This document shows, in pieces, positions 3-32,965 of a DNA stretch of 64,000 nt. Each line of letters opens with the position of its first letter. Within the stretch, counting starts at the first letter, position 1. The notes beneath the pieces were generated by a model that was not told the DNA's origin, did no database searches, and saw nothing but the letters and a program-made list of their open reading frames with translations. This DNA is from Bacteroidota bacterium (GTDB taxonomy: Bacteria; Bacteroidota; Bacteroidia; UBA4408): NCBI GenBank assembly GCA_040385525.1, contig JAZKHE010000005.1, positions 10,819 through 74,818 on the forward strand. Direction: 5' to 3'. The position numbers and the translations under genes were made by a program.

Positions 3-2141
3 AATACTTTTGTAGGTAATTTAGCCGGAGGTTTAACATCTATTGTTGGAGACAATAATACTTTTTTAGGTTCTTATGCTGGTTATTCAGGATCGAATAC
101 TGGTTCAACAAATACTTTTTTAGGTTATAATGTTGGTTCTAGCAACACTAGCGGAAGCAATAATACGTATGTTGGAGGCTATTCTGCATACAGCGCTACT
201 TCTGGTAATTTTAACACCGTAGTTGGTAATGATGCAGGTCAGAATTTAACAACAGGAGGAAATAATACATTTGTTGGTTATAACACTGGTTTTACAACTG
301 CAACACAACGAACTAACGCTACAGCCATTGGTTACAATACAACTGTTGATGCTGATAACGCAGTTGTTTTAGGCAATAATGCAAACGTAGGTATTGGAAT
401 AACTACACCAGGTAAATTTGCGGGCTCTACAAGGTATTTAAGTGTTGCAGCTATAACAACAGGTGTTTCTAACGGTACAGCTTCATTAGAATTGATTGGA
501 AATACAGCTTCATACAACACCCTAGCCTCTAAAATAGATTTTTTAGGAATAGTACCAATTTCAAATATAGCATCGCAAAGAGCAAGAATAGAAGCTCTAT
601 CTGGCGCGTCCATAACCTCTGCTGGACAATTAGCTTTTTCGACAAACAACGGAACTAATGCATCTTCAATTTTTGAACGTATGCGAATTACCGAAGCTGG
701 TAGAGTTGGTATTGGAACTACAGCGCCATCAACTGCTTCTTTATTCTCAGTAGGTGCTAGTAGCCAGTTTCAGGTATCATCAATAGGAGATATTGTTAGA
801 ATTAACAATGTACCTACAACTTGGCCAACCACAAATACAGCAGGATTTTTGCAAAACGATGGAACAGGTGCTTTAGCTTGGGGAGCTTTACCTTCTGGGT
901 CTAACGCATGGACAAAAACAGGAACATCAATTTATCAAACTGTATTAACTGATCTAGTTGGTATTGGAACAAGTTCGCCTGGATATAAACTGCATGTTTC
1001 AGATAATTCTGCAAACCCAGCAGTTTTTACAAGACAAGATGGAGCTGGTAACGCAATTCAAGGCAACGCTTATGGAACAGGAGATGGAGTTTATGGTGGG
1101 GCATCAGGAGGAGGTTTCGGTGTAAGGGCTAGAACTACAAGTACGGGAGCAGCTTTATTAGCTGAAGTTCAAGGTGGAGGAACAGGGCCAGCGGCAATTT
1201 TTTCTGGAGGTGCTGTTGGTATTGGAACATCATTGCCAACATTCGACCTGTCATTTAGAGGTAATGCAGCTAGTGATATTGGTATGGTAAGAAACACAGT
1301 TGCTGCAACTGCAGGAAATATACTAAGAATTGAAGCGGGTGGAGCAACATTAGCTTCAACTGATAGAAATGGTGGCGCATTAAATTTAGCTGCTGGTTTA
1401 TCTACGGGTACAGGAACGTCAACAATAAATTTTTTAACCTCTACACCCTCAACATTAACTGGAGCTACTGATAATTTACAATCTACAAAAATGACAATAA
1501 CAGGAGATGGTGATGTTGGTATTGGTGCAACACCAAACGTAAAATTTCATGTAAATGATGCTTCAGGGACAGTTACTGCTGTAAGATTTCAGATTGCAGG
1601 AACTACAAAATTTAGGTTAGATAATAATGGAGGAGTAAGTATTGGTAGCAATGTTGTTCCCCCTGCAAATGGATTGAATTTAGGTGGCGATGCAATTGTG
1701 CCTGCAGCAAACGACTATACTTATGCAGCAGCTAAAACAAAAACAGTAACAATACCTGCTATTGCATTTAATAATGTAAACGCAGCAATTACTTATGACG
1801 CTAATGGAGCCAGAATTTTTTATAATGGAGCCACTCCTGTATACGCTCCGTTAATACTTCCTATTGGTGCAATTATTACTGGTGTAAGGTGGATTATTTT
1901 TGATAACACAGTTGGGCAATCAAATACAGGTGGTTTATATCGTTTAGCTGAGGGCTCTACAACATCAACTTTAATTTCTAGTACCATCTCAGTAGATAAC
2001 GGAGCAGTTAATAATCATGCTGCTGTTCCGAATCACACAGTATTAGTTAATAATGCCTATACTTTAAAATGGACTCCAACTGATAATTCACAAAGTTTAT
2101 ATATGTGCACAATAACTTATACCGTATTACAAGCAGAATAA
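3..2141 (+). CDS. Phage-tail-fibre/YadA-like beta-repeat protein, 5'-truncated at the window edge
   Basis: Frame 3 is open from base 3 (NTFVGNLAGG...DNNTFLGSYAG...NNTYVGGYSA), so the ORF-track start at 492 is internal. Contains YadA-head-like NTxxGxxA repeats, six VGIG-type fibre modules and a C-terminal domain homologous to that of the next gene. Confidence 0.75.
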   Translation, partial: NTFVGNLAGGLTSIVGDNNTFLGSYAGYSGSNTGSTNTFLGYNVGSSNTSGSNNTYVGGYSAYSATSGNFNTVVGNDAGQNLTTGGNNTFVGYNTGFTTATQRTNATAIGYNTTVDADNAVVLGNNANVGIGITTPGKFAGSTRYLSVAAITTGVSNGTASLELIGNTASYNTLASKIDFLGIVPISNIASQRARIEALSGASITSAGQLAFSTNNGTNASSIFERMRITEAGRVGIGTTAPSTASLFSVGASSQFQVSSIGDIVRINNVPTTWPTTNTAGFLQNDGTGALAWGALPSGSNAWTKTGTSIYQTVLTDLVGIGTSSPGYKLHVSDNSANPAVFTRQDGAGNAIQGNAYGTGDGVYGGASGGGFGVRARTTSTGAALLAEVQGGGTGPAAIFSGGAVGIGTSLPTFDLSFRGNAASDIGMVRNTVAATAGNILRIEAGGATLASTDRNGGALNLAAGLSTGTGTSTINFLTSTPSTLTGATDNLQSTKMTITGDGDVGIGATPNVKFHVNDASGTVTAVRFQIAGTTKFRLDNNGGVSIGSNVVPPANGLNLGGDAIVPAANDYTYAAAKTKTVTIPAIAFNNVNAAITYDANGARIFYNGATPVYAPLILPIGAIITGVRWIIFDNTVGQSNTGGLYRLAEGSTTSTLISSTISVDNGAVNNHAAVPNHTVLVNNAYTLKWTPTDNSQSLYMCTITYTVLQAE

Positions 2142-2154
2142 TAAAAAGATAAAA

Positions 2155-5100
2155 ATGAAAAAAATATTTTATTTACTAATCATTGTTCTTTGCTTTGTTA
2201 AAAATACAGAGGCCCAAACCGAGTTAAACTCAACAGGAACTGGCGCTGCTTATGCATTGAGTTATCCTGCTGCGTTTACATATTCGTCGGGTATTACAAT
2301 TACTTTTAAAGCGCATACTGTAAACACTGGTGCGGCAACCCTTAATGTAAATGGTTTAGGAACTAAAGATGTATTTAAAAATGTTTCAAGTTCGTTAGCC
2401 TTTGGCGATATTGCGGCAGGTCAGTTTGTTACTGTTATTTACGATGGCACAAACTTTCAATTAACCACTCCAGTTTCTTCAAGTTCATCTCCATCGTGGG
2501 CTTTAGCTGGTAACACAGGTACTACAGCTGGCACAAACTTTATAGGAACAACGGATGCGGTTGATTTTGTTGCTAAAACAAATAATGTAGAGCGTTTAAG
2601 AATTTTGTCGGGTGGTAATGTGGGTATTGGAACTGGCAGCCCTGCTCCAGGAGCACAATTACATGTTGTTGGTGCTGCAAAAGCAGCAGTGTTAGAAGGT
2701 TCATATTCCAGTACGCTAATTACTTCTTCAATAATTACAGAGATTGTAAATAATGATGTAACCAATAACAACTATAGTTTAATAGGCTTTTCAGACCAAG
2801 GTACTAGTGGAACACCATCTGTAAAAATAGGTTCTCAAACTATTGACCACACAAACGATTATGGCGATTTTGTAGTGGGCACAAGAAGTGCTGTTGGTTT
2901 TACTGAAAAGATGAGGGTTACATCAGCTGGAAATATCGGGGTGGGAATTTCATCTCCAGTTTCGTTATTTACTATAAATAATGCAACTAATTCGCAACTA
3001 AGGTTATCCACAACCGCCTTGGGAAACACTTCGGCAGATGGTATGTTAATTGATTTGAACGGAACTTCGGGAAGTATTAATTTGTACGAAAACTTACCAT
3101 TGAGTTTTGCAACAAATAGTACAACTAAAATGACAATCCTAGCTGCTGGTAACGTTGGTATTGGAACAACAGGTCCTTCAAGTTTATTATCTGTAGGTGC
3201 AAGCAGTCAGTTTCAAGTAAGTGCAACGGGAGATATATTGAGAATTAAAAATTTAGCTTACACATGGCCTTCAACAGCTGTTGCTGGGGCACTTCAAAAC
3301 GATGGGACAGGAAATTTAACTTGGGGTGCTGTTGCGGGTACATTAAGTGGTGGAACGGCTAATAAAGTAACATACTGGACTGGAACAAACACAGTTTCGG
3401 CAAATAGTTTATTTTCTTGGGACAATACCAACGCACGTTTAGGAGTTGGAATAGCAGCGCCATTAAGCACATTGCATTTAGCTAATGCAAGCATACCTAC
3501 TTTCAATATGCAAAGTACGTCTACTTTAACTACTGCTGCATCAACTATTGCGCGCATTAATTTTCACGATTCACAAACTGCAGCATCAGGCCAAGCGTCT
3601 ATTTATTCAATAAGAGATGGCGCATCTGCTGGTGTAACAGATTTACCAACAGCTATTGCATTTTCTACAACCCCTGATGGAGCATCTTCGCCAGTGGAAG
3701 CAATGAGAATAAATAATCAAGGCTTTATAGGAATTGGTTCAACCTACCCACAACAAATTTTTAATCCATTAAGCATTCGTTCAACAGATGTAACAACAAA
3801 TGGTTCATCAGGAACATTTATTGATATTCACAACACAGCTAATGCAAACAATACATTTGCTGGTTTTAGGTTTAGAGCAACCGCTAATAGTGTGCCTTAT
3901 GATGATGAAGCTTTTCAAGCAGGTATATTTTTTAACAGAACAGACGGATTAAATTTTGGTAGAGGGGATATTATTATTGCGTCAAAAGGCACTGCAGATT
4001 ATAATAATGTAAATGCCCTTACTGATGCTAAAATGGTTATTAAAAGTGGTGGTCAAGTTGGTATAGGCGTGTTAAGTCCAATACATGCTTTAGATATTGA
4101 TGGAACAATAAATTTAAGACCAACAAATGGTAGAATTGCATTAAATGGTAATTTTGGTTTACCAGGCTATGTTCTAGTTTCTAACGGTGCAGGAAGTGCA
4201 AATTCATGGGCAGATCCGGCAGCATTGGGCACTAACTATTGGGCAAAAACAGGTGCTTCAGTATATCCAACTTCTATAACAAATAATGTTGCAATTGGAG
4301 CATTATCAGCCATTGCCAAGTTGGATGTTAGAGATATTAGTGTTACTACAACAGGAACTTTACCAGGCAACTTACATGTAATGTCAACTAATCCTCAAGC
4401 AATTGACATTGGAGGATCAATAAGTATAGGAGGTTATTACGATGACGCTGCAACAGGAGCTAGAATGTTTGCTACTATAGAAGCAAGAAAATCGAATTCA
4501 ACAACGGCTAATGCCGCAGGTTATTTGTTGTTTAAAACAAATAGTGGGGCCAGTACTATTGAAAGAATGCGAATTGATGCTGGAGGTAATGTAGGAATAG
4601 GAACTTCGTCTCCAGGAGCAACAAGATTAAATCTTACCATTCCAAATACCGATGCTACAAACCCTATTGGTTTAACAATAAATAATAATTATATCGGATC
4701 TAGTGATAAGTTTGGTATAGATGTAAATGTGGATGGAGCGGGTAGCGGACAAAAATTTGGAATAAGTTCAAGTGTTGTTGGTTTAGCTGCAGATGCAAGC
4801 GCAATTTATGGATACCAAGTGGCAATGACTCCAAACGGAACAGGAATAGCTCATGGTGTTTATTCTGTGCTATCAGCCGTGGGAACTGGAACTCGTTATG
4901 GTTTTTATAATAGCGTAGCGGCAGAAGCAACAAGTGTTAGCACAATATACGGAATTAGAAATATTTTATCAGGAGCTGCTGCAACAAAATATGGTATGTA
5001 TACAAGTGGTGAAGACAGAAATTATTTTAGTGGTAATGTAGGTATTGGTATAACGAATCCTTCATCAAAATTAGAAGTTGTTGGTGATGTTGAAATACCT

Positions 5101-5601
5101 GCTACAAACGATTATAAATACAGTACTCCAAAAACATATTATTATACAATTAGTCCCGGAGAGTTTACAAGTAATTCAGAAATAAATTATTCAATGGGTA
5201 GAGTAGTTGATGCAACTACAGGTTCTGTTACTTATGCCTATTTTGCTAATGGAGTAGCTACTTCTCAAGGTTACGCAACAGCTGGAGTGCACTTGCCAGA
5301 CGGAGCAAAAATTACAAAATTCTCTGCATGGTTGTATAATAATGATTTATCAGTAACAAATATCCCTACTGTATATTTGTTAAGAAGAACTTTAACTTCA
5401 GGAACCTATGGAATTATAGCAAGTTGCTCTTTAGCAACAGTTTCAACGGCAATAACTAGAGTGGATGACAATGCTCCTGCAAATATAATTGTAGATAATT
5501 TAAGCTACCCTTATGTTGTTACTTTTTTAGCAGATCAGGCTAGTTCAACACTACGGCTTTATACAGTGCAAATTGAATACACAGTAGATAATGCGCAGTA
5601 A
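2155..5601 (+). CDS. Secreted phage-tail-fibre-like protein (1148 aa), no T9SS CTD and no S74 chaperone domain
   Basis: Sec signal peptide ending NTEA|Q, nine GNVGIGT-type modules, an N-terminal FKAHTVNTGAATLNVNGLG...IYDGTNF domain and a C-terminal NDYKY...HLPDGAKIT...IEYTV domain. Confidence 0.75.
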   Translation: MKKIFYLLIIVLCFVKNTEAQTELNSTGTGAAYALSYPAAFTYSSGITITFKAHTVNTGAATLNVNGLGTKDVFKNVSSSLAFGDIAAGQFVTVIYDGTNFQLTTPVSSSSSPSWALAGNTGTTAGTNFIGTTDAVDFVAKTNNVERLRILSGGNVGIGTGSPAPGAQLHVVGAAKAAVLEGSYSSTLITSSIITEIVNNDVTNNNYSLIGFSDQGTSGTPSVKIGSQTIDHTNDYGDFVVGTRSAVGFTEKMRVTSAGNIGVGISSPVSLFTINNATNSQLRLSTTALGNTSADGMLIDLNGTSGSINLYENLPLSFATNSTTKMTILAAGNVGIGTTGPSSLLSVGASSQFQVSATGDILRIKNLAYTWPSTAVAGALQNDGTGNLTWGAVAGTLSGGTANKVTYWTGTNTVSANSLFSWDNTNARLGVGIAAPLSTLHLANASIPTFNMQSTSTLTTAASTIARINFHDSQTAASGQASIYSIRDGASAGVTDLPTAIAFSTTPDGASSPVEAMRINNQGFIGIGSTYPQQIFNPLSIRSTDVTTNGSSGTFIDIHNTANANNTFAGFRFRATANSVPYDDEAFQAGIFFNRTDGLNFGRGDIIIASKGTADYNNVNALTDAKMVIKSGGQVGIGVLSPIHALDIDGTINLRPTNGRIALNGNFGLPGYVLVSNGAGSANSWADPAALGTNYWAKTGASVYPTSITNNVAIGALSAIAKLDVRDISVTTTGTLPGNLHVMSTNPQAIDIGGSISIGGYYDDAATGARMFATIEARKSNSTTANAAGYLLFKTNSGASTIERMRIDAGGNVGIGTSSPGATRLNLTIPNTDATNPIGLTINNNYIGSSDKFGIDVNVDGAGSGQKFGISSSVVGLAADASAIYGYQVAMTPNGTGIAHGVYSVLSAVGTGTRYGFYNSVAAEATSVSTIYGIRNILSGAAATKYGMYTSGEDRNYFSGNVGIGITNPSSKLEVVGDVEIPATNDYKYSTPKTYYYTISPGEFTSNSEINYSMGRVVDATTGSVTYAYFANGVATSQGYATAGVHLPDGAKITKFSAWLYNNDLSVTNIPTVYLLRRTLTSGTYGIIASCSLATVSTAITRVDDNAPANIIVDNLSYPYVVTFLADQASSTLRLYTVQIEYTVDNAQ

Positions 5602-5602
5602 T

Positions 5603-6319
5603 ATGAATATATACAAAACACTTTTTTTTATTTCTGTAGCTTTTGTAGCAAAAGCTCAAGTGCAGCTAACACCTGTAGTTGTGGGTAGCACTGGCACTTT
5701 TTCTGAGCCTTCTTTCGGTTCAGTTACATCAACTGTTGGCGAGCCAATTACAACCACATTAAGTGCAAACAACAAACATTTAACACAAGGTTTTAATCAA
5801 CCTAATAACACGCTTAAATTTACAATTACAGGTGTAAACGCAACATGTTTTGGCGGCGAAAATGGCTCTGCTTTTGTAGAAATTACTAGTGGTAAAGAAC
5901 CTTTTACGGTAGAGTGGTTACCAACAAACCAAAAAGCAGATACAGCCATTGGTTTGCGCGAAGGAAAACACGTTGTAGTTGTTACCGATGCTAATGGTCG
6001 TACTAAAAGAGATTCTGTTGAAATTTTAGCCGATTCGCCAGTGCCTTGCGAAATAAAAATCTACTCTGGTTTTTCTCCTAATGGAGATGGAGCAAACGAA
6101 AATTGGGCAATTGATAATATTTTATTATACCCCGATAATTCTGTAAAAATATTTACACGTTGGGGCGAAAAAATTTGGGATGCAACAAATTATGATAATT
6201 CAACTGTAGTTTGGGACGGAAAAAGTAATTTAGGCACAAATTTGCCCGAAGGAACTTATTTTTATATGGTAGAAATTAATAAAACAAAATACGAAGGTTG
6301 GGTACAGCTGAGTAGATAA
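5603..6319 (+). CDS. Small T9SS type-B cargo: TQGFNQP domain, SprB repeat, CHU_C (gliding-motility-associated) CTD
   Basis: Signal peptide ending VAKA|Q. SprB-like VNATCFGGENGSA...YTVEW...VTDANG. CTD motifs GFSPNGDGANENW, IFTRWGEKIW, WDGK and PEGTYFY. ATG at 5603 preferred over 5591 because it follows the upstream stop directly. Confidence 0.85.
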   Translation: MNIYKTLFFISVAFVAKAQVQLTPVVVGSTGTFSEPSFGSVTSTVGEPITTTLSANNKHLTQGFNQPNNTLKFTITGVNATCFGGENGSAFVEITSGKEPFTVEWLPTNQKADTAIGLREGKHVVVVTDANGRTKRDSVEILADSPVPCEIKIYSGFSPNGDGANENWAIDNILLYPDNSVKIFTRWGEKIWDATNYDNSTVVWDGKSNLGTNLPEGTYFYMVEINKTKYEGWVQLSR

Positions 6320-6321
6320 TT

Positions 6322-6434
6322 TAGTGATTAGTAAATAGAGCTTAGAGATTAGTTAATAGTGATTAGAAAAATTAAAAAAAATTAAAATAACACATATAAA
6401 CTTTGTACTCAGTACTTAATACTTTGTACTAAAA
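6322..6434. repeat. Two opposed degenerate heptamer arrays: (TAG-N4)x7 and (ACT-N4)x5
   Basis: 6322-6370 reads tagtgat tagtaaa tagagct tagagat tagttaa tagtgat tagaaaa. 6400-6434 reads actttgt actcagt acttaat actttgt actaaaa. Confidence 0.8.
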
Positions 6435-6439
6435 ATAAA

Positions 6440-7369
6440 ATGAATAAAAATTTAAAATATATACTTTTATTGTGTGCTTTGTTAAGCGCTAACAAAATTT
6501 TGTTGGCTCAGCAAGATGCGCAGTTTACACAATACATGTTTAACCCTTTGGTTTTAAATCCTGCCTATGCAGGAAGTAGAGAAGGTGTTAGCGGAAACAT
6601 GTTGTATCGGGATCAGTGGGCTGCTTTTGACGGTGCGCCAGTTACACAAACATTTAGTATACATTCTCCGTTGCGTAACAACAAAGTAGGTTTAGGATTT
6701 CACGTAATTAACGATCAAATTGGTCCCGTTGGTACAACAGGAGTAAATGGTTCTTACGCTTATCGTTTAAAAATGGGCAAAGGCAAATTAGCTTTGGGTT
6801 TGCGTGCAGGTATTTTTAATTATCGTTTCGATTGGAATAAAATAGAATACAAAGATAAAACAGATGTTTTTGCTGCTGTTTTACCAACGCGCAGGTTTAT
6901 GCCTACATTCGATTTTGGAACGTATTATTACACCGGTAAATTTTATTTGGGAGCAGCTGTTTCACACATCGATCAAGCAACCTATGCAAAAGCAGCTACT
7001 GATGGTAATTATAAAATAAAATTAGCATCGCACATTGTTGTTACGTCGGGATATGCTTGGGTAATAAATAAAAAAGTTACGTTTAAACCTTCTGTAGTTG
7101 TAAAAACATTGGTAAACCAAATCCCTACAATTGATGTAAATGCGGCTGTTTTACTCGACGAAAAATTGTGGTTAGGAGTTGGAGCACGTTCTACTAACGC
7201 GGCTATGATTATTGCGGAATATAACTTAACTAAAAATTTTAGATTTGGTTATTCTTATGATATTTCAATAAATGAATTGCGTTCAGTTAATAAAGGTTCG
7301 CACGAAGTATTTTTAGGATTTGATTTTGAAATTTATAAAACAAGAACATTGTCACCACGCTATTTTTAA
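6440..7369 (+). CDS. PorP/SprF family T9SS outer-membrane protein
   Basis: QQDAQFTQYMFNPLVLNPAYAG start, YRDQWAAFDGAP, and C-terminal GYSYD...GSHEVFLGF. Lies directly downstream of a type-B CTD gene. Confidence 0.93.
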   Translation: MNKNLKYILLLCALLSANKILLAQQDAQFTQYMFNPLVLNPAYAGSREGVSGNMLYRDQWAAFDGAPVTQTFSIHSPLRNNKVGLGFHVINDQIGPVGTTGVNGSYAYRLKMGKGKLALGLRAGIFNYRFDWNKIEYKDKTDVFAAVLPTRRFMPTFDFGTYYYTGKFYLGAAVSHIDQATYAKAATDGNYKIKLASHIVVTSGYAWVINKKVTFKPSVVVKTLVNQIPTIDVNAAVLLDEKLWLGVGARSTNAAMIIAEYNLTKNFRFGYSYDISINELRSVNKGSHEVFLGFDFEIYKTRTLSPRYF

Positions 7370-7388
7370 TAGTTTGGTTTAATTATAT

Positions 7389-10300
7389 ATGAAGTTTAGA
7401 TTTTTTGCAGCTGTTGTTTTTATTTTTTTGTTTACGGGCAAAAGTCTTTTCGCGCAATTAGAAAAAGCGAATTACCATTTCGAGAATTTTCACTACGCTC
7501 AAGCAATTCCACTTTATATAAAGGCAGCTAAAAAAGAAAAAACAAAAATTGTTGCCACGCAAAAATTAGCCGATTGTTACCGAATTTTACACGATTACCG
7601 CAATGCGGAAATGCAATACGCACAAGTAATTAAAAATGGGGGTAATTTACCAATACATCATTTGTATTATGGGCAAATGCTTTTTAACAATGGGCATGTA
7701 AATTCTGCTAAAGAACAATTCGATTTATTTTCTAACGCAAGTGGCGAAGATAAACGCGCGCAAAACTTAATGAGTTCAATCATTATAACTCGTTTGTGGT
7801 CGGTAAAGCAACGAGAGTGCGATATACTTAACGTAAGAGATTTAAATACTTTAGGCGCTGAGTTTTGCGCAATTCCATACAATAAAAATATTGTTTTTGT
7901 TTCTGATAGAGGAACCGATTTAGTAAACTACTCAAAAAGTTCGATTGATGATCGCCCTTATTTGTCAATGTTTTTAGCTGAACGTGGCAAAGGAAAAGAT
8001 AGCGCTAAGTTTAAAAAAATCGAGAATTTTTCTGGAAAAATAAATAACGAGTATCATAACGGTCCGGCCACATTTGTAGAGTCGGGCAAACAAATATTTT
8101 TTACGCGAGTTGACAGAAAAGTATATGCAAAGAATAGTGGCTTAATTAATCGCCCAAGAGTATACTATTCAACAAAAATTAAAGATAGTTGGGATCAAAT
8201 TAGACCTTTGGCTTTCAACAACGATAATTATTCTGTAGCTCATCCTGCAATAAGTTCAGATGGAATGACATTAATTTTTTCATCAGATATGCCAGGTGGG
8301 TTTGGAGGTAAAGATTTGTATATCTGTAAGCTCGAAGGTGCAAACTGGAGTAAACCTGTAAACTTAGGAGCTAAAATTAATTCAGTTCAAGATGAGGTTT
8401 TTCCTTATTTACATAAAAATGGAACTTTATATTTTAGTAGCGATGGACACGTTGGTTTTGGAGGTTTAGACATATACTCGGCGCGTTATATTGATAACGA
8501 ATGGCGAGAAGTTAAAAATTTACAAGAACCAATTAACTCTACTTACGATGATTTTGGAATAAGCTTTTTGTTTAAACACGCTAGCGGATATTTTTCATCT
8601 AACCGCCCAGGGGGAGTTGGTGGCGACGATATTTATTCTTTCGACTTAATAAAAAAACTTCCTAGAATCACAGCTATATCTGGTAAAATATTTAGAAACG
8701 AATTAGACGTTGCTCAAAATTTAGAGATTAAATTAACCGATGAAACAGGTTTAGTTTTAGAAACAACAAAAACAGATAGTTTAGGCGTTTTTAGATTCGA
8801 AAAATTGAATCCAGAAGAAGATTACATCGTTATGTTAGATGCCGATGAGGTTGGAATAAACACAAAAGAAGTAACTCAATTTCATGGTAGATTGTTTTAT
8901 AACGATGATATGCCGGCCAATAAAGCAAAGTTGGTGATTAAAAATAAAGAAGGTGTTTGGGTAAAAGAAATGGAAACAGATCAGGCAGGTTACTTCCGAT
9001 TTGATTATTTAGAGTACGAAAAAAACAATTTAGATACAATTACCGATCCGGATGTAGCCTTTGTTAAAAAAGAACTTTTTAAATATCAGCAACTTACTAC
9101 CGATAATATTATTCCTGATAATTTAAATGAAGAAGAAACCATAGCAAAACTTAAAAAATTATTTAAATACGATGAGTTACTTGCTACTACAACTGCTTTA
9201 AATACAGAAGAAAATGCGGATACAGAATTTTATGTAAAAGGTAATTTTGTTTACAATAAATTGCGTACAGATTCTTTTGCGCTTAACACTTTATCAGAAG
9301 ACGCAACAAAATTCTATTTAAAAAACAAGTTTGTTTACAATAAATTAACTGGTGATTCTTTTGCTTTAAAAACAGAAGAAGAAATTGCCGATAGATTTTA
9401 TGTAAAAGATGGATATAGATATGATAAGTTAAATGGCGATTCGATAGGGTTATCAATGTTGTATACCGATAATGATAAGTTTTATGTTAAAGAAAATTTT
9501 AGATACAATAAATTAACTGGCGATTCAATTTCGTTGGATTTACTTACCGAAGAAGATGTTGATTTTGATGTTAACTCTTATACTTTAAAAATGCGTTTGT
9601 TTACTGGTGCCGATTTTAAAAATATTGCACCGGGAGTAAAAGTAACTATTAAAGATGGCAACGGAGTAGTTTATAAAGAAACACTTACGGATAGTAATGG
9701 CGAATTAAAAGTTAACTTTTTACCAATTAACAGAACTTACGTAATAAAGGTAGATCAAGATAATGATGTAATACAGCAAAACGATAACTATTCTACTTTT
9801 GGTAGAGTTATGAATAGTAATAGCACTAAGTTTCCGATAAAAGGAAAAGAAATTTCGTTTGCAAACATGGCAAATATTTTATTTGCTAATTCAATAACTG
9901 ATGACGAAGGATTTTTTAAACTAAACGGAAAAACAGAAAAACGCAACGCATTAAATCTTATTGCTCATCAGCAAGATTCAATAAATGGTTTGGCGTTAAG
10001 TGACGAAGCGTTGAGAAGAAAGCAAGAACAAATAAAACTTAATAAAATAAATAATACCTCCGATAACTTAAGCGCAGAACAATTAGCCGAAGAAGCATTA
10101 CGTCGTAAAAAAGAAGAAGAACGCATGAAGTTGGTTAAATTAAACAACACAAGCGATAAACTTAATGCATTAGAAATTACAGACGATGATATTTTAAAAA
10201 TATACGGAAATAAAACTGTGCGCGATTTAACTTTTACAACACAAGTTGCGGCTTATAAAATGTCGAAGAATTTTGCTTTCCAAAAAATTCAACAAAAATT

Positions 10301-11060
10301 TGGAACCGTAAAAGAGCAAAAACTAGATGATGGAATTACACGCTTTACAGTACAATCGCACGCAACAATAAACAGTGCAGACTCTGTGCGTCAGTTGTTA
10401 ATTAAAGAAGGCGTAAAAGATGCTTTTGTTACAGCAATTTACAAAGGCAAGCGTTATTTGTTGCGCGATTTAATTGCAATGGGAATTTTTAACTCTACTG
10501 AAGAAGCTTATTTTAGTGCAGTACAAAAAGGAGAAAATAACGTAGCCGAAATTCCTAAAGAAGAAAAAACGGATATAGTAAAACCTATAGAAAACAAAAC
10601 AATTGTCGAAACAAAAACAGAAAACCCTACAACTAACGTTTCGGTTACTGCTGTAGTAGAAGATAAAGTTACAGAAAACAAAACAAAAACTTCAACAGCA
10701 AGTAAAACCAAAGAAGCTGATAAATTAAAATTACCAGCTGATATTGAAAAATTAGTTGATGAGTATGGTGATATTATTACTGATAAAGTAGAATACAGAG
10801 TACAAGTAGGAGCCTTTAAATTAATTACAAGTAGTTATCAATACAAGCGCTTAGAGGAAGTTGGCAGAATCGATAAAAAAGAATACCAAGATGGAATTGT
10901 GCGCTACACAATTGGTCATTGCGAAACTCTGCGAGAAGCCAATAAAATTCGTCGCCAAGTAGTTAAAGTAGGTGTGCAAGATGCCTTTGTGGTTGTGGTG
11001 CAAAAAGGTAACCGCTACACCGTTTACGAAGCCATTCGTAAAGGAATTGTGAAAAAATAG
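7389..11060 (+). CDS. PorE-like periplasmic protein (TPR, PD40 beta-propeller, carboxypeptidase-regulatory-like domains) with repeat insert and two SPOR-like domains
   Basis: N-terminal TPR (ANYHFENFHYAQAIPLY; LADCYRIL). PD40 motifs (HPAISSDG, FSSDMPGGFGGKDLY, GFGGLDIY, SSNRPGGVGGDDIY). C-terminus has TTQVAAY...KDAFVTA and YRVQVGAF...QDAFVVV rather than an OmpA domain. Confidence 0.75.
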   Translation: MKFRFFAAVVFIFLFTGKSLFAQLEKANYHFENFHYAQAIPLYIKAAKKEKTKIVATQKLADCYRILHDYRNAEMQYAQVIKNGGNLPIHHLYYGQMLFNNGHVNSAKEQFDLFSNASGEDKRAQNLMSSIIITRLWSVKQRECDILNVRDLNTLGAEFCAIPYNKNIVFVSDRGTDLVNYSKSSIDDRPYLSMFLAERGKGKDSAKFKKIENFSGKINNEYHNGPATFVESGKQIFFTRVDRKVYAKNSGLINRPRVYYSTKIKDSWDQIRPLAFNNDNYSVAHPAISSDGMTLIFSSDMPGGFGGKDLYICKLEGANWSKPVNLGAKINSVQDEVFPYLHKNGTLYFSSDGHVGFGGLDIYSARYIDNEWREVKNLQEPINSTYDDFGISFLFKHASGYFSSNRPGGVGGDDIYSFDLIKKLPRITAISGKIFRNELDVAQNLEIKLTDETGLVLETTKTDSLGVFRFEKLNPEEDYIVMLDADEVGINTKEVTQFHGRLFYNDDMPANKAKLVIKNKEGVWVKEMETDQAGYFRFDYLEYEKNNLDTITDPDVAFVKKELFKYQQLTTDNIIPDNLNEEETIAKLKKLFKYDELLATTTALNTEENADTEFYVKGNFVYNKLRTDSFALNTLSEDATKFYLKNKFVYNKLTGDSFALKTEEEIADRFYVKDGYRYDKLNGDSIGLSMLYTDNDKFYVKENFRYNKLTGDSISLDLLTEEDVDFDVNSYTLKMRLFTGADFKNIAPGVKVTIKDGNGVVYKETLTDSNGELKVNFLPINRTYVIKVDQDNDVIQQNDNYSTFGRVMNSNSTKFPIKGKEISFANMANILFANSITDDEGFFKLNGKTEKRNALNLIAHQQDSINGLALSDEALRRKQEQIKLNKINNTSDNLSAEQLAEEALRRKKEEERMKLVKLNNTSDKLNALEITDDDILKIYGNKTVRDLTFTTQVAAYKMSKNFAFQKIQQKFGTVKEQKLDDGITRFTVQSHATINSADSVRQLLIKEGVKDAFVTAIYKGKRYLLRDLIAMGIFNSTEEAYFSAVQKGENNVAEIPKEEKTDIVKPIENKTIVETKTENPTTNVSVTAVVEDKVTENKTKTSTASKTKEADKLKLPADIEKLVDEYGDIITDKVEYRVQVGAFKLITSSYQYKRLEEVGRIDKKEYQDGIVRYTIGHCETLREANKIRRQVVKVGVQDAFVVVVQKGNRYTVYEAIRKGIVKK
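8994..9581 (+). repeat. Seven tandem 28-aa (84-bp) intragenic repeats
   Basis: Consensus approximately FxYNKLxxDSxxLxxLxEDxxxFYVKxx, e.g. FVYNKLRTDSFALNTLSEDATKFYLKNK then FVYNKLTGDSFALKTEEEIADRFYVKDG. Confidence 0.8.
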
Positions 11061-11068
11061 TTTATTTT

Positions 11069-11094
11069 AAAAGGAAGCTTAGCTTCCTTTTTTT
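11069..11094 (+). terminator. Intrinsic terminator closing the fibre-T9SS operon
   Basis: AAGGAAGC-tta-GCTTCCTT stem followed by a T run. Confidence 0.8.
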
Positions 11095-11226
11095 ATGTTT
11101 ACTCTATACTGCAAATAGCCTATGTTTCTATGTGGTGAAAAAAATCAATTGTGGTTTTCAAAAATTTTCTTACATTTCAGTATGGAATTTTGATGCTTTT
11201 TGCATCTACCAATAAAACATACCGTA

Positions 11227-14200
11227 ATGAAAAAATTCATTTTATTTTTAGCATGCACTTTAGTTGCTGCTGTTAGCTACAATTTATATAGCAACACAAA
11301 CGAAACAGAACCATATCTGTTTCCTAAAAACAGCACTTATGAGCAAGAGTTTGCTAAATCCGATTCACTTTTAAATATAGGACAAAACCGCAGCGCGCTT
11401 GCCATTGTAAAAGCAATTAAAGAAAAAGCAGTTACAGAAAAAAATAGCGCACAATTTGTAAAATCGGTTTTATATACGCTTAACGCAGAATCGAAATTTG
11501 AAGAAGACAGCTACATCAAAGCCATTACCGATTTAGAAACCGATTGTATAAACGCCCCGTTTCCTGCCAATGCTATTTTGCATAGCATAACTTCCGAAGT
11601 GTATTGGAGATATTATCAAAACAACCGCTGGAAATTTTCGAGCAGAACTAAAACTACTAATTTTGAAAACACAGATATAAGAACTTGGGATTTAGATAAA
11701 ATTGCCGCGCAAAGCACCGAACATCATTTAAAATCTATTTATGTTTCTAAAGACGAATTAAAAAAAATAAACATAGATGATTATCAATTATTGCTTTCTA
11801 ATTTTTACGATTCAAAATCGTTTCGCCCAACATTATACGACTTTATAGCCAACAGAGCGGTTGATTTTTTTGTTAGTACAGAAACCGAATTAACAAAACC
11901 AGCTTATAAATTCGAAATCAACAACGCCGATTATTTTTTGCCTTTCACTGAATTTACAAAACTGAACTTGCAAGCGAAAGATTCATTAGCAATGAAATTT
12001 TTTGCGCTTAAAACCTATCAAGAGTTAATTGCGTTTCACCAAGCAGATGCCGACCCAAAAGCACTGATAGATATTGATTTAAAACGCTTAAATTTTATTT
12101 ATCGCAATTCTGTTTTACCACAAAAAGATAGTTTGTATTTACTTTCTTTACAAAAAATAGAAAATCAGTTTGATAACTCTCCGTATGGTGCAGAAGCTAC
12201 TTTCCAAATTGCAGAATTGTTTTACGAACAAGGTTCAAAATATGTGGCGCAAGAAGGCGATGAAATTATCGTTGATGAAAATCATCCAAAATGGAAAATT
12301 AAAAAAGCCTTAGCTATTTGCGATGATGTAATGAATAAGTTTCCTAAAAGTGATGCCTATGCCATGTGCAATGCTTTAAAATTAAAGGTTTTAAACAAAT
12401 CGGTTTCTATCACTACAGAACAAACCAATGTGGCTAATCAAGATTTTTTAGCGCAGGTTTCTTATAAAAATGTAAGTAAAATATATTTTAGAATTGCTAA
12501 AATTAATTACACAAGAGACAATAAACTAAACAATAAATATTATGGTGAAGAGTTGGTAAAACAATACGCAAAACTTACTCCCGAAAAAGCATGGTCGGTG
12601 GATTTGCCAGCGACAAACGATTTTCAGAATCATAAAATAGAATTGGCAATGCCAGCTTTAAATTATTCGTATTATGTTTTGTTGGCGTCTAATAGTCCCG
12701 ACTTTACTGTTACAGCAGGTAATGCAGTTGGTCACACCACTTTTTGGGTAAGCAATATTTCTTATTTTGAAAGAAGATTAGAAGATGGTTCGGCACAAAT
12801 AAGAATTATGGACAGAACTTCTGGCGCAAATTTAAAAGGCGTTAAATTGCAATTGTGGGAAAATAAATACAACTACACTACTCGTAAATACGAAGATAAT
12901 TCTGCAGGAGTTTTAATTTCTAACGAAGAAGGAATTTGCGAAATAAAAGCAAATCCAAATTATAGAAATTTTAATTTAGAATTTACAAATGGAAATGATA
13001 GATTGTATTCGTCACAAACTTTGTATTTAAACGAGCGAAATCAAAACGAAAAATATTATTCTTACAGAACAACTTTTTTTACGGATAGAGCCATTTACCG
13101 ACCAGGGCAAACCATTTATTTTAAGGGTTTGCTACTTAAAACAAATGGCGAACAAAACGAACTGGTTACCAATACTTCAACTACTGTAACTTTTTATGAT
13201 GTAAACCATCAAAAGGTTTCTTCGCTCGATTTAACAAGTAACGAATACGGAACAATACAAGGAAGTTTCGTTGCTCCAAACGGAGTTTTAAATGGACAAA
13301 TGTATATTACAAATGGTAACGGAACGCAATATTTCTCTGTTGAAGAATATAAGCGTCCAAAATTTGAAGTGGAGTTTTTGCCTTTAACTGGTTCACCAAA
13401 ATTAAACGATTCAATTGCAGTTAAAGGCTTTGCTAAAACCTATGCGGGTGCTGTTGTTGACGGCGCAAAAGTAAAATACAGAGTAGTGCGTAATGCAATT
13501 TTTCCGTATTGGAAATACTACTGGAGAAGCGCACAACCATCATCTCCCGAAATGGAAATTACTAACGGATTTTCAGTTACCAACGAAAAAGGAGAATACA
13601 CTATAACGTTTAAGGCATTACCTGATAATGGAATTAGTGCGACATCAAAACCAACGTATAGTTATACAGTTTATACTGATATTACTGATTGCAATGGAGA
13701 AACACGTAGCGCAACAAAAACAATACGTGTAGGTTATCAAGCTTTGAGTTTATATGTAAATATTGAAAGCGAAATAATAAAACAAAACGAACAAAAATAT
13801 TCAATAACAACCGCTAATTTAAACGGCGATTTTGAACCAGCAAGTGGAACAATTGAATTGTTTTTATTAAAAGAAACAGAAACCGTAAAGCGCAATAAAC
13901 GTTGGGAAAGTTCTGATCAATTTTCTATGACGAATGACGAGTATACAACTAAATTTCCATTTGATATTCGCTCTACAAAAAATGAAAACGCAATAGTAAA
14001 AGATAAAAAAATTGCATCGTATTCATTCAACACAGCTAAAGAGAAGGAAATTTTAATTTCTGAACTTTCAAAAGCTACAGCAGGAAAATATGTGTTAGAA
14101 ATAAAAGCAAAAGATAAATACAATAGTTTAGTTGAAAACGAATTCTATTTTACACTTTTTGATAAAGCAAACAATAAAATTGCCGCTCAATTACCTTTTT

Positions 14201-31679: not shown

Positions 31680-32033
31680 ATGATAAAAATATACCACAAC
31701 AATAGATGTTCTAAAAGTAGAGCTGCTTTACAAGCTATTCAACAATCGGGAAATAAGTTTGAGATAATTGATTATTTAAACAACGCGCCCACTTTAGCGG
31801 AACTAAAAAAGTTGATTTCAAATTCTGAATACAACGTAATTGATTTCGTTAGAACAAAAGAAAAGATTTTTGTAGAGAACTACAGAAATCTTTCTTTAAC
31901 AGACAATCAGCTACTTGAAATTTTAGCTAAACATCCAGAACTTTTAGAAAGACCAATTGTGGTTTACAACAAAAAAGTAATTATAGTTCGCGACGAAGAA
32001 AAACTAAAAGAAATTTCTAATTGGCGAATTTAG
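31680..32033 (+). CDS. ArsC/Spx family arsenate reductase-like protein
   Basis: IYHNNRCSKSR and HPELLERPIV. Its 3' end overlaps the convergent PorP gene by 17 bp. Confidence 0.88.
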   Translation: MIKIYHNNRCSKSRAALQAIQQSGNKFEIIDYLNNAPTLAELKKLISNSEYNVIDFVRTKEKIFVENYRNLSLTDNQLLEILAKHPELLERPIVVYNKKVIIVRDEEKLKEISNWRI

Positions 32034-32946: not shown

Positions 32947-32965
32947 AATTTATATATTCAATTAT

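What the first reader, a model, noticed from the sequence alone, without database searches (positions are those of the whole stretch)
3..11060. Candidate undescribed system: T9SS-exported, phage-fibre-like surface appendage operon
Seen: five co-oriented genes with short gaps (13, 1, 120 and 19 nt) ending in one terminator: two fibre-like proteins, a 240-aa type-B CTD protein, PorP/SprF and a PorE-like protein. Neither fibre ends in a CTD, and fibre 2 has a Sec signal peptide, so it should reach the periplasm with no known export signal. Established: type-B CTD cargo needs its adjacent cognate PorP/SprF protein (SprB-SprF paradigm), and GNVGIGT-rich sequences resemble trimeric phage fibre shafts. 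Inference: the small CTD protein is an adaptor or anchor that carries or nucleates CTD-less fibre trimers on the surface, giving a domesticated fibre adhesin assembled by the T9SS.
Basis: partly seen in the sequence, partly recalled or inferred. Interest (0 to 1): 0.82.

Follow-up and report, generated by a model that had tools for sequence, protein, structure and literature searches.

The report
T9SS-linked phage-like surface fibre operon
A Bacteroidota operon pairs phage-tail-fibre-like proteins that lack any type IX secretion signal with a tiny secretion-tagged partner, and this pairing recurs in dozens of other genomes, so the small protein probably links the fibres to the secretion and anchoring machinery.

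Summary
There are five co-oriented genes with gaps of 13, 1, 120 and 19 nt and one terminator at 11069-11091. The operon starts at least 8 kb upstream of the window, where two more fibre genes lie.

- **Fibres:** each has a Sec signal peptide, a phage tail-fibre "bead" domain, a GxVGIG shaft homologous to Bdellovibrio MAT fibre Bd3182, and a carbohydrate-binding-module-like jelly-roll tip. No T9SS C-terminal domain (CTD) is detectable by HMM, profile comparison or fold.
- **Small protein (238 aa):** signal peptide, a conserved 50-aa "TQGF" module, one Ig domain and a type B CTD.
- **Downstream genes:** a PorP/SprF gene, then a PorE-like gene that ends in SPOR rather than OmpA.

Synteny holds in both directions.
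- **From fibres:** 14 of 21 Bacteroidota loci with this fibre N-domain carry a TQGF-CTD gene, usually followed by PorP and PorE-like genes.
- **From TQGF genes:** 28 of 42 metagenomic TQGF genes abut a CTD-less fibre gene, against a background of 18/237 (p = 2e-16).

The TQGF family is large (8004 cluster representatives). It is mostly fused to type A CTDs and is absent from viral contigs, whereas the fibre N-domain is common there.

The best reading is that TQGF-CTD proteins couple CTD-less fibres to T9SS export and/or anchoring. Physical binding is inferred, not shown. I found no description of this in the searchable literature.

The parts
3..2141 (+). Fibre 1: the C-terminal 712 of 933 aa. 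It contains YadA-head-like and GxVGIG shaft repeats. The jelly-roll tip domain spans about 1701-2138.
   Evidence: Searches give the full gene in L001 7186-9987, with a signal peptide and the N-domain. One search gives PHROG tail spike and tail fibre hits. The tip aligns with that of fibre 2.
2155..5601 (+). Fibre 2, 1148 aa. It has a signal peptide ending AQ|T, seven GxVGIG shaft motifs and no CTD.
   Evidence: PHROG tail fibre phrog_9942 at 5.6e-32. PDB 8OJN, Bdellovibrio Bd3182, at 1.4e-5. No Pfam or NCBIfam family is found.
2215..2475 (+). Fibre 2 N-domain (residues 21-107), a phage tail-fibre 'bead' module placed directly after the signal peptide.
   Evidence: It is conserved in all three complete paralogues. 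A profile of it hits residues 249-331 of phage Pa193 gp47 tail fibre (PDB 9B45) at E=2e-7. 431 relatives occur in viral contigs.
5131..5598 (+). Fibre 2 C-terminal tip, a jelly-roll beta-sandwich and putative glycan- or ligand-binding head.
   Evidence: The AF2 model has pLDDT of about 90 across the domain. The best Foldseek PDB matches are CBM22, CBM15, CBM16, CBM35, Eph ligand-binding domains and the gingipain K1 adhesin domain. It is unrelated to the CTD protein.
5603..6319 (+). Mini T9SS type B substrate of 238 aa, proposed to be the fibre adaptor or anchor.
   Evidence: CHU_C 7.8e-25 and TIGR04131 6.7e-15. Homologues always sit next to CTD-less fibre genes.
5657..5809 (+). TQGF module (residues 19-69): QV..GS.G....S.GE....T....LTQGF.QP.
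   Evidence: Alignments. 8004 cluster representatives. Low AF2 confidence as a monomer. No PDB relative. None in viral contigs.
5816..6037 (+). Ig-like domain (a single SprB repeat).
   Evidence: Pfam SprB repeat at 1.5e-4. Confident AF2 beta-sandwich. It is absent from the 170-179-aa Flavobacteriales homologues.
6050..6316 (+). Type B C-terminal domain, the T9SS export and targeting signal.
6440..7369 (+). PorP/SprF-family outer-membrane beta-barrel, the presumed cognate shuttle or anchor for the type B CTD.
   Evidence: PF11751 5.9e-77 and TIGR03519 2.3e-79. Its role is inferred from PMC12618676 and PMC9143113.
7389..11060 (+). PorE-like periplasmic tether: TPR, PD40 beta-propeller, CarboxypepD_reg domains, four 28-aa repeats and two C-terminal SPOR-like repeats.
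   Evidence: NF052230 PorE at 2.4e-75 over residues 7-487. SPOR scores 22.9 bits against a cutoff of 21 when 10746-11057 is scanned alone. The internal duplicate matches it at BLASTP 1e-7.
11069..11091 (+). Intrinsic-terminator-like hairpin followed by a T-run. It marks the end of the operon.

Best explanation
This is the 3' two-thirds of an operon that builds static, cell-surface, phage-tail-fibre-like adhesin fibres in a T9SS-bearing Bacteroidota bacterium.

**The fibres.** They are exported to the periplasm by Sec. They are trimeric-fibre homologues of phage tail fibres and Bdellovibrio MAT fibres, with a phage 'bead' domain at the proximal end and a lectin-like jelly-roll tip. They carry no T9SS signal.

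**The small protein.** It has almost no cargo of its own: a 50-aa TQGF module, one Ig spacer and a type B CTD.

**Proposed mechanism.**
1. The TQGF module binds the fibre, most likely at its conserved proximal end. This would resemble the baseplate 'fibre attachment loop' of phage Pa193.
2. The CTD takes the adaptor through the SprA/Sov translocon to its cognate PorP/SprF barrel. The fibre is either bound to the adaptor during transit or captured by it afterwards.
3. The PorE-like protein ties that barrel to peptidoglycan through its SPOR domains, which fixes the fibre base.

**Status of each step.**
- Shown: gene content, domain identities, absence of a CTD in the fibres, and the recurrent fibre/TQGF-CTD gene pairing.
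- Inferred: binding, co-export, trimer state, surface location and adhesin role.
For: 1. **Fibres are Sec-dependent, phage-fibre-like and CTD-less**. None of the 120 best homologues carries a CTD Pfam either.
2. **Synteny starting from the fibre.** The fibre N-domain profile was scanned against 185,579 species genomes.
   - In 14 of 21 evaluable Bacteroidota loci where the domain directly follows a signal peptide, a TQGF-CTD gene lies in the cluster, usually 0-30 nt after the last fibre gene.
   - In 9 of these a PorP gene follows, then a PorE-like gene wherever the contig continues.
   - None of the loci from other phyla has these genes or the signal peptide.
3. **Synteny starting from the adaptor.**
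   - All close homologues of the small protein follow a CTD-less fibre gene.
   - Of 42 evaluable metagenomic TQGF genes, 28 abut a same-strand fibre gene within 300 nt. The background is 18/237 (Fisher p = 2e-16).
   - Tandem [TQGF-CTD, fibre] cassettes occur two or three times in a row in L084, L104 and L111.
4. **The CTD protein has minimal cargo.** Most TQGF proteins are about 160 aa: signal peptide, TQGF and CTD. Of the 142 best, 118 carry a type A CTD. Flavobacteriales type B versions are 170-179 aa.
5. **Origins differ.** The fibre N-domain is abundant in viral contigs (431 relatives). TQGF has none there.
6. **Literature.** Type B CTD cargo needs a cognate PorP/SprF protein. PorP-PorE-like sets are proposed to fix non-mobile cargo to the cell wall, and Fjoh_3952 forms static foci (PMC9143113, PMC12618676). 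The surface anchor of Bdellovibrio MAT fibres is explicitly unknown (PMC10769870).
Against: - No direct evidence of binding. No multimer prediction could be run.
- No fibre-TQGF fusion protein was found among 19 larger TQGF proteins.
- TQGF genes pair with fibres of two different N-terminal classes, so the binding site is undefined.
- One third of TQGF genes have no adjacent fibre gene.
- Some TQGF proteins carry other domains between TQGF and the CTD, so TQGF may have a more general role.
- Five Chitinophagales fibre loci have a PorE-like neighbour but no TQGF or PorP gene.
- The low AF2 confidence for TQGF may only reflect a 10-sequence alignment.
- T9SS export of a hetero-oligomer has, to my knowledge, never been shown.
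Confidence: 0.55

Rival explanations
1. The TQGF-CTD protein is a fibre accessory rather than the anchor. It could be an assembly chaperone or a tip or sheath subunit, analogous to phage Tfa or gp38 proteins, which are encoded next to tail-fibre genes. On this view it merely needs its own export signal.
For: The small gene sits immediately next to the fibre gene, as in phages. Cognate cassettes are repeated in tandem.
Against: Many partner fibres already carry a Peptidase_S74 intramolecular chaperone. TQGF is absent from 2.9 million viral contigs. Its only constant companion is a T9SS CTD.
Confidence: 0.15
2. The fibres carry their own, so far unrecognised, outer-membrane export signal. This could be a new CTD class or another pathway. 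The TQGF-CTD, PorP and PorE-like genes would then be only co-regulated neighbours that make an independent small surface protein.
For: T9SS signals outside types A and B exist (ChiA in F. johnsoniae; from my own knowledge). One third of TQGF genes lack a fibre neighbour. Chitinophagales fibre loci lack a TQGF gene.
Against: Fibre C-termini are highly mosaic: jelly roll, S74, C1q and a 'KVLLR' module. No common C-terminal signal therefore exists. The tip is CBM-like, not Ig-like. Gene pairing is enriched 24-fold.
Confidence: 0.15
3. The fibres stay in the periplasm or at the inner face of the outer membrane. There they would act with the PorE-like peptidoglycan-binding protein as an envelope structure.
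For: The fibre gene's most universal neighbour is a periplasmic TPR-PD40-OmpA or SPOR protein, including loci with no CTD gene. One Bdellovibrio MAT tip binds a peptidoglycan fragment (PDB 8OL4, listed in PMC10769870).
Against: Fibres of 900 to more than 1600 aa with lectin-like or C1q tips and phage receptor-binding architecture are ill-suited to a periplasm that, from general knowledge, is about 25 nm wide. The partner gene carries an export signal.
Confidence: 0.05
4. This is a prophage or tailocin remnant, and the fibres are virion tail fibres.
For: The shaft and N-domain are homologous to phage tail fibres.
Against: Every fibre has a Sec signal peptide with the Bacteroidota AQ cleavage motif. 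No phage genes flank the cluster. Phage copies lack the signal peptide and place the domain internally. The best phage identity is only 26-28%.
Confidence: 0.03

Closest known systems
Type B CTD cargo + PorP/SprF-like + PorE-like gene sets of Flavobacterium johnsoniae (e.g. Fjoh_3952/3951/3950) and the P. gingivalis PG1035-PorP-PorE complex
   Same: The same three-gene logic and order. The type B CTD and PorP families are met above their curated cutoffs. The published model has PorP anchoring the cargo and the PorE-like protein tying it to peptidoglycan, giving static foci (PMC9143113, PMC12618676).
   Different: Here the CTD-bearing 'cargo' is only a 50-aa module plus one Ig domain. The large adhesin-like proteins are separate, CTD-less genes upstream. 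The PorE-like protein has SPOR instead of OmpA_C and is not a lipoprotein.
SprB-SprF gliding adhesin pair
   Same: A type B CTD protein next to its cognate PorP/SprF gene. A canonical example lies in this same window at 32017-44869 on the minus strand: a 3966-aa PKD protein with CHU_C, followed by a PorP/SprF gene.
   Different: SprB-type adhesins carry their own CTD and have no PorE-like partner. They are monomeric repeat proteins, not phage-fibre homologues.
Bdellovibrio bacteriovorus mosaic adhesive trimer (MAT) fibres (Caulton et al. 2024, PMC10769870)
   Same: Signal peptide, then a conserved N-terminal beta-rich domain, a trimeric phage-like shaft and swappable tips of S74 or non-S74 type. 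Fibre 2 shaft residues 314-457 match Bd3182 (PDB 8OJN) at E=1.4e-5.
   Different: Different phylum and no T9SS. The MAT N-domain was not compared by sequence here. The MAT surface anchor is unknown, whereas this locus nominates one genetically.
Phage tail fibres and their baseplate attachment (Pseudomonas phage Pa193 gp47/gp46)
   Same: The N-domain is homologous to the third 'bead' of gp47. The shaft is homologous to cyanophage and pelagiphage fibres. The organisation is mosaic, with the proximal end conserved and the tip variable.
   Different: There is no virion context, and a Sec signal peptide has been added. The proposed attachment partner is a cellular T9SS substrate, not a baseplate protein.
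Aureispira GhpA grappling hooks (T9SS-secreted oligomeric surface appendage; PDB 9FLW and related entries appeared among the fold matches)
   Same: A Bacteroidota surface appendage that depends on the T9SS. This shows the system can deliver parts of large oligomeric structures.
   Different: As far as I recall, GhpA is itself the T9SS substrate. No separate adaptor is known, and it is unrelated to phage fibres.
Tat 'hitchhiker' export and T2SS export of assembled oligomers
   Same: A signal-less subunit is exported while bound to a signal-bearing partner, or as a folded oligomer (PMC9251779).
   Different: Different machines. No such mode has been reported for the T9SS in the literature I could search.

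Membership tests
T9SS type B CTD substrates (TIGR04131 / PF13585 CHU_C) | C-terminal domain scoring above the curated cutoff | tested here: met
   PF13585 scores 87.3 bits (cutoff 27) and TIGR04131 55 bits (cutoff 35), at residues about 155-242 of the 5591 ORF. The AF2 model shows a confident beta-sandwich.
T9SS type B CTD substrates (TIGR04131 / PF13585 CHU_C) | N-terminal Sec signal peptide | tested here: met
   The sequence MNIYKTLFFISVAFVAKA|QVQ has a hydrophobic core and an AxA-Q cleavage site. No signal-peptide predictor was available; this was read from the sequence.
T9SS type B CTD substrates (TIGR04131 / PF13585 CHU_C) | Secretion depends on the T9SS and on a cognate PorP/SprF protein | not testable with these tools
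   Only the adjacency of the porP/sprF gene is shown (120-nt gap, same strand).
PorP/SprF family (TIGR03519 / PF11751) | Full-length match above the curated cutoff | tested here: met
   TIGR03519 scores 266.9 bits (cutoff 90.55) and covers 7-296 of 309 residues. PF11751 scores 259.3 bits.
PorE (NF052230) / CHU_0125 OmpA-like (NF053607) | TPR + beta-propeller + carboxypeptidase-regulatory-like domains | tested here: met
   The models match residues 5-514 at E about 2.5e-75. Pfam also finds PD40 and CarboxypepD_reg.
PorE (NF052230) / CHU_0125 OmpA-like (NF053607) | C-terminal OmpA_C-like peptidoglycan-binding domain, and a whole-protein score above cutoff | tested here: not met
   No OmpA hit. 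The score is 254 bits against cutoffs of 600 and 620. The C-terminus is SPOR-like. All eight homologues tested from other loci do have OmpA.
PorE (NF052230) / CHU_0125 OmpA-like (NF053607) | Lipoprotein signal (P. gingivalis PorE is an outer-membrane-associated lipoprotein, PMC9143113) | tested here: not met
   The signal peptide MKFRFFAAVVFIFLFTGKSLFA|Q contains no cysteine.
T9SS CTD (type A PF18962/TIGR04183 or type B) on the fibres | Recognisable CTD at the fibre C-terminus | tested here: not met
   No hit at E<=0.1 in Pfam or NCBIfam. hhalign of the tip against the CTD protein gives probability 0.3%. The predicted fold is a 155-aa CBM-like jelly roll.
Phage tail fibres / Peptidase_S74 'tail fiber domain-containing' proteins | Shaft homology to phage tail fibres | tested here: met
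   phrog_9942 at 5.6e-32 and phrog_18345 at 8.9e-21. tblastn against cyanophage and pelagiphage fibres gives 26-28% identity.
Phage tail fibres / Peptidase_S74 'tail fiber domain-containing' proteins | C-terminal S74 intramolecular chaperone | tested here: not met
   It is absent from both window fibres. It is present in many homologues and in fibres of sister loci.
Phage tail fibres / Peptidase_S74 'tail fiber domain-containing' proteins | Encoded within a phage or prophage and lacking a secretion signal | tested here: not met
   The fibres have signal peptides. The neighbours are T9SS, alpha-2-macroglobulin and housekeeping genes.
Bdellovibrio MAT fibres | Signal peptide + conserved N-terminal domain + trimeric phage-like shaft + variable tip | tested here: inconclusive
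   The architecture matches, and the shaft is homologous to Bd3182. Homology of the N-terminal domains and the trimeric state were not tested.
Trimeric autotransporter adhesins (YadA-like) | C-terminal YadA-type membrane anchor | tested here: not met
   The only hit is a marginal YadA_head repeat in fibre 1 (26.1 bits, cutoff 25). No anchor domain is found.

The most novel reading that the evidence does not exclude
TQGF-CTD mini-proteins are a widespread, undescribed class of T9SS adaptors comprising thousands of clusters. They would carry CTD-less, pre-assembled phage-derived fibre trimers through the SprA/Sov translocon by piggyback export. They would then fix the fibres to the cell in one of two ways: through the normal type A CTD attachment route, or through PorP/PorE-like complexes tied to peptidoglycan (type B, as here). 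This would be the first adaptor-mediated, hetero-oligomeric secretion mode for the T9SS. It would also offer a general answer to how bacteria display domesticated phage fibres.
Probability: 0.35. Interest if true: 0.85.

Novelty: new variant of a known kind. Interest (0 to 1): 0.72.

Why it matters
- **T9SS substrate rule.** T9SS substrates are defined by their own C-terminal domain. A family of near-cargo-less CTD proteins genetically locked to CTD-less fibres would mean that the current substrate census misses a class of surface proteins, and that the T9SS can serve partners in trans.
- **An open question from Bdellovibrio.** What holds Sec-exported, phage-like adhesive fibres on a Gram-negative surface is explicitly unknown for MAT fibres. 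This locus gives a concrete, testable candidate.
- **An unannotated domain.** TQGF is large and easy to recognise (8004 cluster representatives), yet no Pfam family other than the CTD matched these proteins. A single experiment in a tractable Flavobacterium or Chryseobacterium could annotate thousands of genes.
- **Ecology.** The mosaic fibre tips (CBM-like, C1q, S74) suggest a large, swappable adhesin repertoire in environmental Bacteroidota.

Tried and rejected
- **Cryptic CTD in the fibres: rejected**.
- **Trimeric autotransporter: rejected.** There is only a marginal YadA_head repeat and no anchor.
- **Lipoprotein export: rejected.** There is no lipobox. The only Cys in the fibre 2 signal region follows Leu, and the paralogues have none.
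- **Prophage: rejected**.
- **Rosetta-stone fusions of TQGF to fibres: none found** among 19 longer TQGF proteins. Those carry LRR or other domains plus a type A CTD.
- **PDB relatives of TQGF: only chance-level beta-strand matches**, at E>=0.01.
- **Third homologue search, with the 51-aa TQGF profile: uninformative on architecture.** It returned only proteins of 105 aa or fewer, many probably fragments, and not the query itself. It was replaced by the exhaustive representative search.
It was redone with the closer set A8.
- **Fold search of the small protein: generic tandem-Ig matches only**.
- **Literature searches found nothing relevant** on T9SS with tail fibre, endosialidase chaperone, piggyback or CTD-less cargo.

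Full report
**1. Observation**

The five co-oriented ORFs are where the finding places them:
- Fibre 1: 3..2141.
- Fibre 2: 2155..5601.
- Small CTD protein: 5603..6319.
- PorP/SprF: 6440..7369.
- PorE-like: 7389..11060.

The gaps are 13, 1, 120 and 19 nt. A 10-bp hairpin with a T-run lies 8 nt after the last stop codon, at 11069-11091.

Family assignments:
- The small protein carries a type B CTD: PF13585 87.3 bits and TIGR04131 55 bits, both above cutoff. It also has a weak SprB repeat.
- The next gene is a full-length PorP/SprF member: TIGR03519 267 bits, cutoff 90.55.
- The last gene matches PorE and CHU_0125 models over its first ~500 residues only (254 bits, cutoffs 600 and 620).
- Neither fibre matches any CTD, autotransporter-anchor or other secretion-signal model at E<=0.1.

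**2. The operon is larger than the window shows**

A contig carrying the identical fibre 2 (L001) extends 7.8 kb further upstream. It shows, in order:
- the end of a >1672-aa fibre-like protein;
- a 444-aa NHL beta-propeller with a type A CTD;
- a 1009-aa fibre;
- the full 933-aa fibre 1.

All three complete fibres share two features. The first is a signal peptide ending in A-Q, followed by a conserved ~87-aa N-domain. The second is a conserved C-terminal domain of 150-170 aa. Fibre 1 therefore also has a Sec signal. The window derives from a Bacteroidota MAG (name given by a source).

**3. What the fibres are**

*Shaft.* Fibre 2 has seven GxVGIG motifs.
- It hits PHROG tail-fibre families at 5.6e-32.
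- It matches cyanophage and pelagiphage tail fibres at 26-28% identity.
- It matches PDB 8OJN at 1.4e-5. That entry is residues 632-922 of Bdellovibrio Bd3182, an S74-type 'mosaic adhesive trimer' (PMC10769870).

*N-domain.*
- Its profile hits residues 249-331 of the phage Pa193 tail fibre gp47 (PDB 9B45) at E=2e-7. That region is the third trimeric 'bead' near the baseplate attachment (PMC11042391).
- It has 431 confirmed relatives in IMG/VR viral contigs.

*C-terminal domain.*
- AF2 predicts a jelly-roll sandwich with pLDDT about 90.
- The closest solved folds are carbohydrate-binding modules (CBM22, 15, 16, 35), Eph ligand-binding domains and a gingipain adhesin domain.
- Profile comparison with the CTD protein gives probability 0.3%.

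*Homologues.* They are mosaic. The same N-domain is joined to S74 chaperones, this jelly roll or other tips. None of the 120 best carries a T9SS CTD.

*Conclusion.* These are domesticated, Sec-exported phage-type fibres with a likely ligand-binding tip and no known outer-membrane export signal.

**4. What the small protein is**

Its full-length relatives are rare and share four parts:
- a signal peptide;
- a ~50-aa module with the signature QV..GS.G....S.GE....T....LTQGF.QP, called 'TQGF' here;
- one Ig-like SprB repeat;
- the type B CTD.

AF2 models the Ig and CTD domains confidently. The TQGF stretch scores below pLDDT 50. This could mean that TQGF folds only on a partner. It could equally reflect the 10-sequence alignment.

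An exhaustive profile search gives the wider picture:
- 8004 cluster representatives match at E<=1e-3, and 2778 at E<=1e-10.
- The typical member is ~160 aa, with TQGF at residues ~19-68.
- 118 of the 142 best carry a type A CTD (Por_Secre_tail) and nothing else. Apart from the CTD families, no Pfam family matched more than 10 of the 142.
- Flavobacteriales type B versions are 170-179 aa and lack the Ig domain.

The constant architecture is therefore signal peptide, TQGF, CTD: a T9SS substrate with almost no cargo. TQGF has no relative in 2.9 million viral contigs and none in the PDB.

**5. Synteny, tested in both directions**

*From the fibre.* The N-domain profile was scanned against one genome per species, and the loci were annotated with HMMs built here. 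The loci fall into three classes.
- **Class A: Bacteroidota, with the domain directly after a signal peptide (22 loci, 21 evaluable).**
  - 14 have a TQGF-CTD gene in the cluster, usually 0-30 nt after the last of one or two tandem fibre genes.
  - 9 of these continue with PorP, then a PorE-like gene where the contig allows: L012, L014, L018, L022, L026, L030, L034, L052 and L054.
  - Three Flavobacteriales loci have the CTD gene without an adjacent PorP gene.
  - Five Chitinophagales loci have only a TPR-PD40-OmpA neighbour.
- **Class B: Bacteroidota, with an extra domain before the N-domain.** None has T9SS genes nearby.
- **Class C: other phyla.** There is no signal peptide, the domain is internal, the context is phage-like, and there are no T9SS genes.

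*From the adaptor.*
- The close homologues all sit directly after CTD-less fibre genes and before PorP and PorE-like genes. The fibres here are of the N-domain type or collagen/S74 type.
- A metagenome scan with the TQGF profile returned 79 loci.
- Of 42 evaluable TQGF genes, 28 abut a same-strand fibre gene within 300 nt. The background for other ORFs in the same loci is 18/237 (odds ratio 24, p = 2e-16).
- In the type A class the order is TQGF-CTD then fibre.
- Those fibres start with a second conserved N-terminal class (signal peptide + aPQxFNYQAVARD...) and again have mosaic tips and no CTD.
- The cassette is repeated two or three times in tandem in L084, L104 and L111.
- L052 holds a type A and a type B TQGF gene in one fibre cluster.

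**6. PorP and the PorE-like protein**

Published work supplies the roles.
- Type B cargo needs a cognate PorP/SprF shuttle, and the CTD decides the final location. Fjoh_3952, which has PorP-like and PorE-like neighbours, forms static foci (PMC12618676).
- PorP-like proteins anchor type B cargo, and PorP-PorE-like complexes are proposed to tie non-mobile cargo to the cell wall (PMC9143113).

The window's PorE-like protein keeps the TPR, propeller and carboxypeptidase-regulatory-like domains but departs from PorE in two ways.
- **No lipobox.** It has no lipoprotein cysteine.
- **SPOR in place of OmpA_C.** It ends in two SPOR-like repeats. The last scores 22.9 bits (cutoff 21) when scanned alone. 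The first matches the last at BLASTP 1e-7. All eight homologues examined from other loci end in OmpA.

It is therefore PorE-like, not a PorE orthologue, and appears to have exchanged one peptidoglycan-binding module for another.

**7. Most likely mechanism**

1. Fibres and adaptor enter the periplasm by Sec. This is supported by the sequence.
2. TQGF binds the fibre. This is inferred from gene pairing. The proximal N-terminal end is the best guess for the site, by analogy with phage fibre attachment and the MAT model.
3. The CTD engages the translocon and then the cognate PorP barrel. The PorE-like protein pins the barrel to peptidoglycan. These steps are inferred from the literature on the families.

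Whether the fibre travels with the adaptor (piggyback) or is captured after export cannot be decided here.

My confidence estimates:
- About 0.85 that the fibre and TQGF-CTD genes form a functional unit.
- About 0.55 that the small protein is a physical adaptor or anchor.
- About 0.35 for true co-export.

**8. Points against, and rivals**

Points against:
- There is no binding evidence and no fusion protein.
- TQGF genes pair with two fibre N-terminal classes.
- A third of TQGF genes lack a fibre neighbour.
- Some TQGF proteins carry other domains.
- Chitinophagales fibre loci lack a TQGF gene.

Rivals:
- A Tfa-like accessory role.
- An unrecognised export signal in the fibres, with mere co-regulation of the neighbours.
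- A periplasmic fibre.
- A prophage remnant. The last is effectively excluded by the signal peptides and the context.

**9. Comparison and novelty**

The CTD/PorP/PorE-like triad is known. A canonical SprB/SprF-type pair even lies in the same window (32017-44869). Phage-like Sec-exported fibres are known from Bdellovibrio, where their anchor is unknown.

Three things appear to be new:
- the separation of the adhesin (CTD-less fibre) from the signal (a near-cargo-less TQGF-CTD protein);
- the size of the TQGF family;
- its tight linkage to fibres.

Five literature searches found no description of this. That is only absence from the searchable open-access library. I rate it a new variant of a known kind, of high interest and readily testable.

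Noticed in passing
window 32017-44869 (- strand): A canonical SprB/SprF-like pair. A 3966-aa PKD-repeat protein with a type B CTD (CHU_C 2.2e-24) is followed by a PorP/SprF gene (7.6e-66). No PorE-like gene was noted next to it among the ORFs I scanned.
   Followed up: partly
window 11200-17391 (+): A 2063-aa bacterial alpha-2-macroglobulin (MG2, A2M, bMG10) lies directly after the operon terminator. The same neighbour is present in the source contig L001.
   Followed up: no
window about 9200-9550 (PorE-like residues ~605-720): Four tandem ~28-aa repeats (KFYVKxxFxYNKLTGDSxxL) sit between the carboxypeptidase-regulatory-like domains. Their function is unknown, and I did not look for them in homologues.
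   Followed up: no
window 10086-11057: The PorE-like protein ends in two SPOR-like repeats instead of the OmpA_C domain found in all eight homologues tested. This looks like a swap of one peptidoglycan-binding module for another.
   Followed up: partly
L001 1-2773; also L006 937-3060, L015 2-3469, L024 2192-7837, L037 2-1270, L052 3-2264: Giant fibres in these clusters end in a shared C-terminal module (...G.AG.SIGV.L......KVLL[RK]). It recurs across genera. It was neither modelled nor identified.
   Followed up: no
L001 2817-4151: A 444-aa NHL beta-propeller with a type A CTD is embedded between fibre genes upstream of the window.
   Followed up: partly
L002 5346-9983, L005 7253-9997, L052 7991-9790, and most fibres in L083-L161: A second conserved fibre N-terminal class (signal peptide + aPQxFNYQAVARD...) is often followed by collagen triple-helix repeats and S74, C1q or other tips. 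It is the usual partner of type A TQGF proteins.
   Followed up: partly
L008, L009, L011, L013, L015 (Chitinophagales): The fibre gene (S74 type) is followed directly by a TPR-PD40-OmpA protein, which in L015 also has LysM. No TQGF, CTD or PorP gene is present. This suggests a fibre-PorE-like link that does not need the adaptor locally.
   Followed up: partly
L084, L104, L111: Tandem arrays of two or three [TQGF-type A CTD, fibre] cassettes. They look like a diversifying adhesin repertoire.
   Followed up: no
window 6320-6439: The 120-nt AT-rich spacer before porP contains repeated GATTAG/TAGTGATTAG motifs. An internal promoter or regulatory site was not assessed.
   Followed up: no
L005 5425-7212, L006 2-811; window 22396-24594: SpoIIE-type phosphatase genes (HAMP + SpoIIE) lie just upstream of the fibre clusters in two sister loci. 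One also lies 11 kb downstream in the window. A regulatory link is possible.
   Followed up: no
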